This document shows positions 52,231 to 55,200 of a stretch of 64,000 nucleotides of DNA, piece by piece. The stretch's first letter is position 1; each line of letters opens with the position of its first letter. Location of the stretch: NCBI GenBank assembly GCA_964600435.1, contig CAZRJB010000001.1, positions 80,836 to 144,835 of the forward strand. Reading direction: 5' to 3'. The stretch is from an uncultured Lachnospiraceae bacterium (GTDB taxonomy: Bacteria; Bacillota; Clostridia; Christensenellales; UBA1242). The notes below the pieces were generated by a model. That model ran no database searches and was not told where the DNA came from. It saw nothing but the letters and a program-made list of their open reading frames with translations. Made by a program: the position numbers and the translations under genes.

Positions 52231-55200
52231 ATGAGAAAAAAAACAAAAACTATGCTTTTAACAATAATTGCTTTCTGTTTATGCATTGCTTGCATTTCTT
52301 TTGGCGTGTATGCCGTTCAATCTGCAAGCTTAAAAATTAACACCAACATTGGCTACAACATGCACGAACCAATTGTTAACATCTCTGGCACAATCGATAA
52401 CGGCTCATCTTCAACCACTTCCCAATCTTTTTCTAGGTCCGTTAGGTGCATAGAAGGGGTTTCAACCACAGAAACAATTTTCTCTTTTAACTCTCTCTCG
52501 TTTGTTCAATCCGGTTCAACCTTTTCAGATATGGAATTTTCTTTACAACTAGAAAATTTGGACACAACAAATGACATGTCTATGCAAATTGAACTTGTTT
52601 CAACCTTGCCAACTGGCGTTTCAGTTTCCACAAACAGTACATATGTTCAAATCCCATATGAAGATGGCTATTTAGTTAAAGGCTCTTCTTCAACACTAAA
52701 ATTTGGTTTTTCAAGCACTGCTGCCACAACATTAACAAACTTTAGTATCAAATTTAAATTCAGTCCAGCAAGCGAATTGCAATCAAAAACTTTCCCTACC
52801 GGATGGAAGGATGAAATTGCAACCACATCAAGCACAGCATCATTGTCTGCTTTCGCACTATCTGCTTCAACCTTAAACCAAACTTCAACACTAAGCATGA
52901 CAACAGCCCTTTCAGCCAACTCTTTAACATCAATCATGTTTGAAAAATCAGCCCCAGCAGGCTACACAAAAATTGGCGAACTTAGCACAGGCATAAGAGT
53001 ATATCAAAGCACCACCACATCAACCGACATAGCATTCGTGTGGGGGGGGGACATACTTGCTCCTGAGGATTGCACAAGATTGTTTGGAAACTGGTTTTCT
53101 TATATGAATAGTTTTCCGGCATTGAGTAAAATATCATTTAAGAATTTTAACACTGCAAATGTTACAAATATGTTTATGATGTTTCAAGGGTCGTCAAACA
53201 TAACAAGTTTAGAATATTTAACTAATTTTAACACTACAAGTGTTCAAGATATGGGATATATGTTTGCTAACTTAAAGATGATTACATCACTTGATTTAAG
53301 CAGTTTTGATATGAGTAATGTAACCGAGACTGGTTCTATGCTAAATTTCTATGATGATAATCCAGCAATAACTGAATTAAAAACCCCAAGAATAACAAAG
53401 AGTGAGATTAAAATTTTAAAGGCTGTTCTTTATTACAATAATGAGAAACAAACATCTGTTCCGGCCGGATTAACACAAAGCATAACATATACAAATCAAG
53501 TTCCTGCTGCAGCAACCTTTCCAACAGATTGGAAGACTCATTTGTCAAATGGAACATATATGGGATTAGTATTTATACCTTCAGAATATGAAAAAAATAG
53601 TAGCAATCTTACAAAAATTTCATTTGAGAAATCAGCACCAACTGGTTATACCAAAATAGGAAAGTTAAGAAATAGCATAAGCGTTTATCAAAACAACACA
53701 ACATCAACAGATATAGCATTTGTTTGGGGTGGAACAATAAATGCTCCAGAAAATTGTTCGGCTTTATTTGCTTCTTTATCTAGTGTTACGACATTTGAGT
53801 TTAACAATTTTGATACAACTAATACAACAAACATGTCTTCGATGTTTAATGGTTGCACAGCTCTTACAAGTTTGGATTTAAGTTCATTTAACATGGCTAA
53901 TGTTGGTAATTCGACCTACATGATGTTAGATTTTGACTGTAACAATTTACAGGAATTCAAAACACCATACAACAACTCATATGAGATTACAATAGATTCT
54001 AATGCATTGTATTACAACAACGAATTAGTAACATCTGTTCCGGCCGGATTAACACAAAGCATAACATATACAAATGTTGCACCTGCTTCATTATCATTTC
54101 CAACAAACTGGAAGACGGAAATGCAAGATGGATACTCATACATGGGTACAGTATATTATCCAACTGACAAGGTGATTGCTTATAATACATTAACATCAAT
54201 CATGTTTGAAAAATCAGCCCCAGCAGGCTACACAAAAATTGGCGAACTTAGCACGGGCATAAGAGTATATCAAAGCACCACCAAATTAACTGACATAGCA
54301 TTTGTGTGGGGGGGGGACATACTTGCTCCTGAGGATTGCACACAAATTTTTGGAACTGATAACAACAATCAAACAGCACTAACCTCAATAACTTTTAATA
54401 ACTTTAACACGGAAAATGTTAAAAAAATGAACGGAATGTTCAATAAAGCAATATCTCTTCAAACATTAGACTTGACCAAATTTAGCACGACAAATCTAAC
54501 TAATATGCGTACGATGTTCCAAAATTGCAGAAGTTTGACATCAATCACTTTTGGTTCAAGTTTTAACACTGAAAAAGTTACTGATATGACAGGTTTATTT
54601 TATTATTGTGAAAAATTAAATGCATTAGATATTACTAATTTTAACACTGCAAATGTTACAAATATGAGTTATATGTTTAATTATTGTAGTGTTCTTAAAA
54701 GTTTAGATTTAAGTAATTTTAATACTGCAAAAGTTACTGATATGAGTTTCATGTTTAATAACTGCAAAGAACTTACAAGCTTAAACTTAAGTAGCTTTAA
54801 CACATCATTGGTTGAAAATATGAAATCAATGTTTCAAGTATGTGAAAAATTGTCTTCGATAACATTTGGTTCAAACTTTAACACTGCAACAGTTTCCGAT
54901 ATGAGTTTTATGTTTACTTTTTGTTCGGGATTAACTTCATTGGATGTAAGCAATTTTAACACATCTAATGTTGAAAATATGGAACATATGTTCAAACAAT
55001 GTTCAAGTCTTAACACGCTAAATGTAAGCAGTTTTAACACTTCAAAAGTAACAAGTATGGATGCCATGTTCTTAAGTTGTAGTAGTTTAACAGAGTTGTC
55101 ATTAACAAATTTTGTTACAACTTCACTGCAAAGTGATTGTCCTAGTATGTTTTATAATTGTTCAGGATTAAAAAAACTTGATTTAAGTAGTTTTGATTTT

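What the first reader, a model, noticed from the sequence alone, without database searches (positions are those of the whole stretch)
52924..54342. Two in-frame G9 tracts inside 97%-identical 153-bp intragenic repeats: frameshift on/off switches plus recombination substrates
The codons TGG GGG GGG GAC (W-G-G-D) create G9 runs at 53042-53050 and 54308-54316. Each lies in a 153-bp repeat copy (52924-53076 and 54190-54342; 148/153 identical; offset 1266 bp, which is 422 codons and in frame). I checked both slip directions. With G10 both tracts hit TGA after 5 codons (..TCC TGA). With G8 the first tract stops about 19 codons later (ATA TGA) and the second about 20 codons later (CAC TAA). The same W-G motif in the other super-modules uses interrupted codons (TGGGGTGGA at 53725, TGGGGCAGC at 56332), so the long runs are not forced by the protein sequence. 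Together with the C10 and C9 leader tracts, these are the only G/C homopolymers longer than 6 that I could find in the 64 kb. The in-frame repeats, plus an exact 45-bp pair at 53452-53496 and 54031-54075, would also allow deletion or duplication of whole super-modules. Contingency loci of this kind are well known in Neisseria, Haemophilus, Campylobacter and Mycoplasma. They are not described, to my knowledge, for this type of Clostridia-like giant repeat protein.
Basis: seen in the sequence. Interest (0 to 1): 0.7.

Follow-up and report, generated by a model that had tools for sequence, protein, structure and literature searches.

The report
Slippage-prone G9 runs in surface-protein gene
Two runs of nine G's sit in frame inside a giant leucine-rich-repeat surface-protein gene of an uncultured gut Clostridia bacterium and probably switch the protein between full-length and truncated forms, a well-known bacterial trick whose use at these two sites could not be shown directly.

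Summary
G9 runs lie at 53042-53050 and 54308-54316, inside 153-bp copies that are 148/153 identical and 1266 bp apart. There is an exact 45-bp pair, ±1 slips stop translation within 5-21 codons, and every G/C run of 6 or more in the 64 kb lies within 52158-54316.

The gene (52231-58755, 2174 aa) is a DUF285/BspA-type LRR surface protein with six super-modules. The G9 runs sit in the caps of modules 1 and 3, inside a ~166-bp gene-conversion-like patch, so the two tracts represent one origin plus a copy.

I found no length data for these two tracts. Same-species Logan contigs break at the repeat, and a syntenic congener lacks the gene entirely.

Congeners (RpoC ~94-95% identical) support the mechanism. 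LRR-gene promoters there carry TTGACA-N4-G(8/9/10)-N3-TATAAT, with tract length varying between assemblies at one orthologous site. A coding G7 in a DUF285 gene is G6, and frameshifted, in two assemblies.

A synonymous-codon shuffle gives P = 0.02 per window for a G/C run of 9 or more, which is modest. Repeat-mediated phase variation of BspA/DUF285 proteins is already described in Mollicutes.

Verdict: a probable contingency locus, and a new member of a known kind.

The parts
51906..51936 (+). Intrinsic terminator of rpoC. It marks the left edge of the accessory segment.
   Evidence: 13-pair stem followed by a T-run. rpoC was identified.
51903..58946 (+). A 7-kb accessory segment (promoter, leader and giant gene). 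It is absent from the syntenic congener L108, which has a 1.1-kb PHP-domain gene there instead.
   Evidence: L108 aligns with the window up to 51902 and again from 58947.
52027..52055 (+). Sigma-70-like promoter TTGACA-17-TAAAAT of the giant gene. There is no homopolymer in its spacer.
   Evidence: 11 of 12 consensus matches.
52064..52230 (+). GC-rich structured 5' leader. It is 60% GC overall and 74% in the core, in a 32% GC genome. It contains C10 (52158-52167), G6 (52181-52186) and C9 (52193-52201), and ends with the ribosome-binding site GGGAGGAG.
   Evidence: (MFE -78.5 kcal/mol, z = -3.0). No Rfam family matched.
52231..58755 (+). Gene for a 2174-aa DUF285/BspA-type LRR surface protein. 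It has an N-terminal signal/anchor and six super-modules, with caps starting at aa 237, 465, 659, 1090, 1333 and 1731.
   Evidence: translation; PF03382 E = 2e-170; PF13306.
52924..53089 (+). Repeat copy 1, the cap of super-module 1. It is a ~166-bp gene-conversion-like patch with sharp boundaries.
   Evidence: family D6; identity string.
53042..53050 (+). G9 tract 1 (codons 271-274, TGG GGG GGG GAC). A ±1 change gives products of 278 or 291 aa.
53452..53496 (+). First copy of the exact 45-bp direct repeat. It lies within a 123-nt pair at 79% identity.
   Evidence: (family D13).
54031..54075 (+). Second copy of the exact 45-bp repeat. The offset is 579 bp, which is in frame.
54190..54355 (+). 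Repeat copy 2, the cap of super-module 3.
   Evidence: The independent Logan contig L085 starts at 54313, exactly the k = 31 branch point predicted for this repeat.
54308..54316 (+). G9 tract 2 (codons 693-696). A ±1 change gives products of 700 or 716 aa.

Best explanation
The two G9 runs are real, in-frame, slippage-prone tracts in a species-specific accessory gene for a giant BspA/DUF285 LRR surface protein of an uncultured 32%-GC gut Clostridia bacterium.

The most likely mechanism is strand slippage at either tract during replication, adding or removing one G. The assembled state, G9/G9, is ON and gives the 2174-aa protein. A ±1 change at tract 1 leaves only the N-terminal domain (278 or 291 aa). 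A ±1 change at tract 2 leaves the N-terminal domain plus two small modules (700 or 716 aa). A second slip restores the frame. The population would therefore carry a mixture of full-length and truncated surface forms.

One tract arose by two synonymous changes to GGG. It was then copied into another module cap by a ~166-bp gene-conversion or partial-duplication patch. The same repeats can also mediate in-frame loss or gain of modules (1266 bp or 579 bp).

Shown: the anatomy, the frameshift consequences, the gene family, the accessory status of the gene, and the fact that congeners vary poly-G length at LRR-gene promoters and in a DUF285 coding tract.

Inferred: that these two particular tracts vary at useful rates, that switching is reversible, and that the tracts are maintained by selection.
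For: - Tracts, frame and stop positions.
- Surface LRR family with an N-terminal signal/anchor.
- All five G/C runs of 6 or more in 64 kb fall within 2.2 kb of this one gene and its leader.
- Codon-shuffle P = 0.02 for any run of 9 or more. GGG is a rare Gly codon (8.5%), and other W-G sites avoid the run.
- Congeners with 94-95% identical RpoC carry TTGAC[AT]-N4-G9/G10-N3-TATAAT cassettes upstream of DUF285/LRR_5 genes.
- At the orthologous site just downstream of rpoC, the tract is G8 in L098 and L100, G9 in L099, L101 and L102, and G10 in L096. This gives spacers of 15, 16 and 17 nt.
- A coding ATG GGG GGG ATG tract is G7 in L087, L088, L090, L095 and L098-L102. It is G6, with the ORF split into 213/165 aa plus 367 aa, in L092 and L093, which come from two different ENA assemblies.
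- In 335 kb of congener loci, every G/C run of 7 or more except one lies in an LRR-gene promoter or in that coding tract.
- The gene is accessory: it is absent from the syntenic L108, as is typical of variable surface antigens.
- Published precedent for the same protein families: PMC5476646, PMC2824730 and PMC2831843.
Against: - There is no direct evidence of length variation at either window tract.
- The only independent sequence reaching the region (L085) starts inside tract 2 and shows only four G's.
- The codon-shuffle P of 0.02 per 64-kb window implies roughly one such run per 1.5-2 Mb genome by chance. The window was also picked after the fact.
- The two tracts are one event plus a copy, so duplication adds no independent support.
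- The window gene's own promoter has no tract, unlike its congeners.
- The tract cannot be shown to be conserved, because no orthologue exists in the data.
- Tract 1 lies at 12% and tract 2 at 32% of the ORF, not at the extreme 5' end where many classical switches lie.
- The mismatch-repair status of the organism is unknown.
Confidence: 0.58

Rival explanations
1. Neutral accident plus concerted evolution. A rare but unselected GGG-GGG codon choice after TGG and before GAC produced one G9. Gene conversion between module caps then copied it. The tracts are a mutational liability, an occasional route to pseudogenes, rather than an evolved switch.
For: - Shuffle P is only 0.02 per window, or roughly 0.5 expected per genome.
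- The two tracts share one 166-bp patch.
- The gene is a young accessory insertion.
- Some congener LRR genes are broken at ordinary short runs. L098 and L100 carry T4 where L099 has T3, which suggests plain decay also occurs in this family.
Against: - The same gene's leader carries C10 and C9, and no other G/C run of 6 or more exists in 64 kb.
- Congeners place polymorphic G8-G10 tracts specifically on LRR genes, so the lineage-level association is not random.
- Both tracts are in frame in the consensus.
Confidence: 0.3
2. The G runs act at the RNA or translation level. Examples are transcriptional slippage, programmed ribosomal frameshifting, or pausing or G-quadruplex formation. These would yield isoforms or modulate expression without heritable DNA change.
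For: - Long homopolymers can cause RNA polymerase slippage (general knowledge).
- The leader of the same gene is an unusually stable GC-rich structure, which hints at RNA-level control of this gene.
Against: - Both shifted frames end within 5-21 codons and encode no alternative domain, so slippage would only waste product.
- Known efficient transcriptional slippage involves A/T runs (general knowledge).
- No frameshift-stimulating structure was looked for or seen.
- In congeners the length differences are fixed in the DNA.
Confidence: 0.07
3. Assembly or sequencing artefact. The tract lengths, or the near-identity of the 153-bp copies, would be products of MAG assembly or polishing.
For: The source is a MAG contig. 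The region upstream of 54313 has no independent assembly in the data I could reach.
Against: - Both tracts keep a 2174-codon ORF open, whereas random homopolymer errors would break it.
- L085, from an independent Logan assembly, matches 54313-64000 at 99.98% and begins exactly at the predicted k-mer branch point of the repeat. This confirms that the repeat exists in that sample.
- The five mismatches between copies argue against collapse.
Confidence: 0.04

Closest known systems
Simple-sequence-repeat phase variation of BspA-like surface proteins in Candidatus Mycoplasma girerdii (PMC5476646)
   Same: The same protein class (BspA-like LRR surface proteins, multi-copy and strain-variable). An intragenic repeat whose length change produces a premature stop. 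An uncultured host-associated organism studied from metagenomes.
   Different: There the repeats are mostly dinucleotide, and length variants were quantified in reads. Here the repeats are G9 homopolymers, there are two per gene, the gene is a 2174-aa protein of a spore-forming Clostridia lineage, and no read-level data are available.
DUF285 (drp) lipoprotein genes and poly-G 5' tracts in Mycoplasma agalactiae (PMC2824730)
   Same: A DUF285 family gene is switched between intact and pseudogene states by a homopolymer length difference (A6/A7). Poly-G tracts of up to 13 residues lie at the 5' ends of surface lipoprotein genes in a low-GC genome.
   Different: That organism is a Mollicute and the proteins are lipoproteins. 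The coding tract is poly-A, and the authors thought phase variation of drp genes unlikely. Here the coding tracts are G9 and the protein has no lipobox.
Listeria monocytogenes inlA 5' poly(A) tract (PMC2831843)
   Same: An LRR surface protein of a Firmicute is inactivated by a one-base change in a coding homopolymer. The measured change rate is about 1000-fold above the point-mutation frequency.
   Different: That tract is A7/A6 at codon 3 and gives an 8-aa product. Here the tracts are G9 at codons 271 and 693 and give sizeable truncated products.
Classical poly-G/C contingency loci of Campylobacter, Neisseria, Haemophilus and Helicobacter (established knowledge)
   Same: G/C homopolymers of 8-13 nt in coding regions or promoter spacers of surface-structure genes. 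These are rare tracts in a low-GC genome, concentrated in a few genes.
   Different: Those are Gram-negative pathogens with experimentally measured switching. Here the organism is an uncultured Gram-positive-type gut commensal and there are no switching data.
Promoter-spacer homopolymer switches (Neisseria porA/opc poly-G/C; Mycoplasma hyorhinis vlp poly-A; established knowledge)
   Same: Congeners of the window organism have TTGACA-N4-G8/9/10-N3-TATAAT upstream of LRR genes. The length variation changes the -35/-10 spacing between 15, 16 and 17 nt.
   Different: The window gene's own promoter has a plain 17-nt spacer. Its homopolymers are in the 5' leader and in the coding sequence instead.

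Membership tests
Contingency locus (repeat-mediated phase variation) | A homopolymer or short repeat is placed so that a unit change alters the reading frame or the promoter. | tested here: met
   Both G9 runs are in frame. A ±1 change gives a stop within 5-21 codons.
Contingency locus (repeat-mediated phase variation) | Tract length is polymorphic within or between populations at this locus. | not testable with these tools
   No reads are available. Same-species Logan contigs break at the repeat. The G8/G10 product look-ups were uninformative because cut products are not stored. JGI scans gave 0 hits. For other loci in congeners this feature is met.
Contingency locus (repeat-mediated phase variation) | Switching is reversible and occurs at high frequency. 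| not testable with these tools
   This needs cultures or time-series reads.
Contingency locus (repeat-mediated phase variation) | The tract is longer or more frequent than composition and codon usage predict. | tested here: inconclusive
   P = 0.02 per 64-kb window in the synonymous shuffle, and all long G/C runs are clustered in this one gene. However, roughly one such run per genome is expected by chance, and the two tracts are one event.
Contingency locus (repeat-mediated phase variation) | The gene encodes a surface or host-interaction product. | tested here: met
   PF03382 DUF285 at E = 2e-170 and PF13306 BspA LRR. The protein has a hydrophobic N-terminal signal/anchor.
Contingency locus (repeat-mediated phase variation) | The tract is retained in orthologues or strains. 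| tested here: inconclusive
   No homologue above 41% identity was returned. The syntenic congener L108 lacks the gene. The search appears to hide the window's own record, so the negative result is weak.
BspA-like / DUF285 LRR surface proteins | Tandem ~26-residue DUF285/TpLRR-type repeats. | tested here: met
   14 matched stretches of PF03382, and 78-nt periodic repeats.
BspA-like / DUF285 LRR surface proteins | An export signal and surface display. | tested here: inconclusive
   An N-terminal hydrophobic segment MLLTIIAFCLCIACISFGVYA is present. There is no canonical lipobox, LPXTG motif or C-terminal anchor. No signal-peptide predictor was available.
Promoter-spacer homopolymer switch | The homopolymer lies between the -35 and -10 hexamers. 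| tested here: not met
   The window promoter 52027-52055 has the spacer CATTTTTGTCATACGGG. The feature is met in congener loci L087, L089, L096 and L098-L102.

The most novel reading that the evidence does not exclude
An uncultured, low-GC, spore-forming gut Clostridia genus runs a layered poly-G/C contingency system on its LRR surface-protein repertoire. The layers are a portable promoter cassette (TTGACA-N4-G8-10-N3-TATAAT), coding G tracts, and, in this species, a 74%-GC structured leader with C10/C9 plus two serial intragenic G9 switches. Together these would give three size states (about 280, about 700 and 2174 aa) of one accessory giant adhesin. This would make homopolymer slippage, rather than the DNA inversion typical of gut Bacteroidales, a main route of surface variation in a commensal Firmicute lineage.
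Probability: 0.35. Interest if true: 0.6.

Novelty: new member of a known kind. Interest (0 to 1): 0.42.

Why it matters
Phase variation in gut commensals is mostly documented as invertible promoters in Bacteroidales. Homopolymer switches are known mainly from pathogens and Mollicutes.

If these tracts switch, an uncultured gut Clostridia lineage would vary its BspA-like adhesins by slippage. That would affect how strain-level surface diversity, immune (IgA) targeting and phage receptors are read from metagenomes.

There is also a practical point. Frameshifted 'pseudogenes' at G tracts in MAGs of this group may be OFF-phase genes rather than dead genes or errors.

The mechanism itself is not new.

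Tried and rejected
1. **Homologue search with aa 1-720.** The best hit was 41% identical over 39% of the query, so there is no orthologue. The window's own protein is in the collection but was not listed, so the search seems to hide it or miss it.
2. **GTDB genome scan with the RpoC C-terminus.** No tract-bearing relatives were among the 80 loci.
3. **Two JGI metagenome pattern scans.** One targeted the window tract and one the congener promoter. Both gave 0 hits.
4. **Exact look-ups of same-species contigs.** These found Logan contigs more than 99.9% identical to the window. A k = 31 simulation shows that the tracts sit on 109-nt unitigs.
5. **Look-ups of predicted G8/G9/G10 products.** These covered peptides from those unitigs and the full truncated proteins. 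Known cut products are also 'not in the collection' (compared), so these negatives carry no information.
6. **Rfam on the leader.** Nothing matched.
7. **Alternative genetic code (TGA = Trp), rejected.** rpoB, rpoC and about 40 other ORFs are intact under table 11.
8. **The contig break at 54313 as evidence of tract heterogeneity, rejected.** It is exactly the repeat branch point.
9. **The L098/L100 split LRR_5 gene as a poly-G event, rejected.** The shift is T3 to T4.
10. **Searches for papers naming the SRA runs.** None were found.
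Full report
**Observation**

- G9 runs lie at 53042-53050 and 54308-54316. 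Each is formed by the codons TGG GGG GGG GAC, encoding W-G-G-D.
- Each run lies in a 153-bp copy (52924-53076 and 54190-54342). The copies are 148/153 identical and 1266 bp, or 422 codons, apart. The gapless extension is 166 nt at 95% identity (family D6).
- The 45-bp pair 53452-53496 / 54031-54075 is exact.
- G10 gives ...WGGGHTCS-stop at both sites. G8 runs for 18 further codons at tract 1 and 21 at tract 2 before a stop.
- The other W-G sites use TGG GGT GGA (53725) and TGG GGC AGC (56332).
- The only G/C runs of 6 or more in the 64 kb are C10 at 52158-52167, G6 at 52181-52186, C9 at 52193-52201 and the two G9 runs. All lie within 2.2 kb.

**What the locus is**

The ORF runs from 52231 to 58755 and encodes 2174 aa. 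It matches Pfam DUF285 (PF03382, E = 2e-170, 14 stretches) and BspA-type LRR_5. It starts with a hydrophobic signal/anchor.

It is built from six super-modules. Each consists of a cap, DUF285 repeats of 26 residues, and a ...KTPY... closing segment. The G9 runs sit in the caps of modules 1 and 3.

The gene follows rpoB-rpoC and the rpoC terminator at 51906-51936. It has a near-consensus promoter at 52027-52055, TTGACA-17-TAAAAT. Its ~170-nt leader is 60% GC, and 74% GC in the core, in a 32% GC genome. The leader folds strongly, at -78.5 kcal/mol with z = -3. It matches no Rfam family.

The genome uses the standard code and carries yqfD. It belongs to an uncultured Clostridia lineage.

**Chance**

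GGG makes up 8.5% of Gly codons. Among 75 Gly-Gly pairs in 40 window genes, GGG-GGG occurs only at the two tracts. In 1000 synonymous-codon shuffles, a G/C run of 9 or more appeared in 2% of trials. About 1.6 runs of 6-8 were expected and none was observed.

The identity between the two copies starts and stops abruptly, and module 2's cap is only 67% identical. The two G9 runs are therefore one origin plus a gene-conversion-like copy, not two independent events. Taken alone, the excess is modest, at roughly one such run per genome by chance. The clustering with C10/C9 in the same gene's leader is what makes it notable.

**Direct test of variation at these tracts**

This test could not be done.
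- The same species, at more than 99.9% identity, occurs in four Logan assemblies.
- Contig L085 begins at window position 54313 with GGGGACATAC....
- A k = 31 graph simulation shows that 54313 is exactly the branch point created by the repeat. It also shows that the tracts fall on 109-nt unitigs.
These negatives are uninformative, because a known cut product is also 'not in the collection'.
- Two JGI metagenome pattern scans found nothing.

**Orthologues**

No homologue above 41% identity was returned, although the search appears to hide the window's own record.

L108 is a congener with the same gene order from the Rce1-like genes through rpoC to polA. It aligns with the window up to 51902 and again from 58947. 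In between it has only a 1.1-kb PHP-domain gene, and it has no G/C run of 6 or more in 23.5 kb. The promoter, leader and giant gene (51903-58946) are therefore an accessory segment of this species. The 'compare orthologues' test has no subject.

**Lineage context**

This is the main new evidence. The 90% cluster of the window's RpoC gave human-gut MAG contigs with RpoC 94-95% identical to the window's. Their loci show three things.
1. **A recurring promoter cassette.** TTGAC[AT]-N4-G(n)-N3-TATAAT lies upstream of DUF285 or LRR_5 genes.
2. **Length variation at one orthologous site.** Immediately downstream of rpoC, which is the position the giant gene occupies in the window, the tract is G8 in L098 and L100, G9 in L099, L101 and L102, and G10 in L096. 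This gives -35/-10 spacers of 15, 16 and 17 nt. The flanks are 92-100% identical. The site upstream of rpoB is G9 in L087, L089 and L098. It reads ACGCAGGGGG, followed directly by TATACT, in L090.
3. **A polymorphic coding tract.** A coding tract ATG GGG GGG ATG in the DUF285 gene upstream of rpoB is G7 in nine contigs. It is G6 in L092 and L093, from two different ENA assemblies, where the ORF splits into two overlapping frames.

In 335 kb of these loci, every G/C run of 7 or more except one lies in such a promoter or in that coding tract. The N-terminal domain of the window protein is homologous to that of the LRR_5 protein downstream of rpoC in L099 (32% identity, E = 7e-14).

Not every break is a G-tract event. 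The split LRR_5 gene of L098 and L100 is a T3-to-T4 change.

**Mechanism**

The best-supported reading is a slippage switch.
- G9/G9 is ON and gives the 2174-aa protein.
- A ±1 change at tract 1 gives a product of 278 or 291 aa that retains only the N-terminal domain.
- A ±1 change at tract 2 gives a product of 700 or 716 aa that carries two small modules.
- A compensating slip at the other tract cannot rescue the frame, because stops intervene.
- The repeats also permit in-frame deletion or duplication of 1266 bp or 579 bp. They contain 65-nt and 39-nt identical blocks and an exact 45-mer.

Shown: the anatomy, the consequences of a slip, the gene family, the accessory status, and poly-G polymorphism on LRR genes in congeners. 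Inferred: the switching rate, reversibility and selection at these two tracts. I put this reading at about 0.58.

The main rival, at about 0.30, is an unselected codon accident copied by gene conversion. That would leave a mutational liability rather than an evolved switch. RNA-level slippage or frameshifting (about 0.07) is unattractive, because the shifted frames encode nothing. An assembly artefact (about 0.04) is unlikely, because a 2174-codon ORF stays open and an independent assembly confirms the repeat junction.

**Comparison with known systems**

- Repeat-mediated frameshift switching of BspA-like proteins was shown from metagenomic reads in Ca. Mycoplasma girerdii (PMC5476646).
- In M. 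agalactiae, a DUF285 lipoprotein gene differs by A6/A7 between strains, and poly-G tracts precede surface lipoprotein genes (PMC2824730).
- The LRR protein InlA of Listeria is switched at an A7/A6 tract at about 1000 times the point-mutation frequency. The same study notes that poly-G/C tracts are generally under-represented in coding genes (PMC2831843).

I did not find it described for gut Clostridia.

In membership terms, three defining features of a contingency locus are met or partly met: placement, gene class and local over-representation. Two features, polymorphism at the locus and reversibility, could not be tested. Conservation across orthologues is inconclusive. The promoter-spacer variant is not met in the window, but it is met in congeners.

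**Verdict**

This is a new member of a known kind. Interest is moderate and comes mainly from the lineage-wide poly-G system that the follow-up uncovered, not from the two tracts alone.

Noticed in passing
window 52064-52230 (C10 52158-52167, G6 52181-52186, C9 52193-52201): The 5' leader of the giant gene is 60% GC, and 74% in the core, in a 32% GC genome. It folds into a very stable multi-helix structure (-78.5 kcal/mol, z = -3) in which the C runs pair with G runs. It matches no Rfam family. Its role is unknown; it could act in RNA stability, attenuation or translation control, or be a further slippage site.
   Followed up: partly
L087 3454; L089 4134 and 21310; L096 6030; L098 3290 and 14093; L099 9761; L100 10477; L101 9831; L102 ~9757: Congeneric human-gut MAGs carry a portable promoter cassette, TTGAC[AT]-N4-G8/9/10-N3-TATAAT, upstream of DUF285/LRR_5 genes. 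At the site just downstream of rpoC the tract is G8, G9 or G10 in different assemblies, giving spacers of 15, 16 or 17 nt.
   Followed up: yes
L092 578-583 and L093 (G6), compared with L087 4637, L088 313, L090 4482, L095 676 and L098-L102 (G7): The coding poly-G tract ATG GGG GGG ATG in a congener DUF285 gene is one G shorter in two independent ENA assemblies. There the ORF splits into two overlapping frames.
   Followed up: yes
L090 ~3296-3320: At the promoter site upstream of the DUF285 gene, L090 reads TTGACAACGCAGGGGGTATACT. This is an interrupted, shortened tract with a collapsed spacer, where relatives have G9. It could be a stabilised or dead version of the cassette.
   Followed up: no
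window 51903-58946, compared with L108 13562-14676: The promoter, leader and giant DUF285 gene are absent from a syntenic congener, which has a 304-aa PHP-domain gene on the opposite strand there. The giant gene is therefore an accessory insertion or replacement next to rpoC.
   Followed up: yes
L098 ~15160-15185 and L100 (compared with L099 ~10830): The LRR_5 gene downstream of rpoC is split into 304 and 181 aa in the two assemblies that also have the shortest (G8) promoter tract. The frameshift is a T3-to-T4 change, not a G tract.
   Followed up: partly
window 52231-52950, compared with L099 9939-10330: The N-terminal ~125 residues (signal/anchor plus first domain) of the giant DUF285 protein are homologous (32% identity, E = 7e-14) to the N-terminus of a congener LRR_5 protein at the same genomic position. 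A shared N-terminal module appears to be fused to different repeat bodies.
   Followed up: partly
window 59397-62285: A 962-aa ORF downstream has no convincing Pfam or NCBIfam match; the best is a sub-threshold hit to the Peptidase_M26 N-terminal region. It is conserved in the syntenic congener (937 aa, faint Glug hit).
   Followed up: no
L089 2262-2290: This is the only congener G/C run of 7 or more that is not tied to an LRR gene. A G8 forms the 3' arm of a CCCCC...GGGGGGGG hairpin between the tex and rluB-like genes.
   Followed up: no
tools: The window's own proteins (RpoC and the giant protein) are in the protein collection. The homologue search did not return the giant protein, and the contig look-up returned neither. 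Negative results for very close relatives should be read with that in mind.
   Followed up: partly
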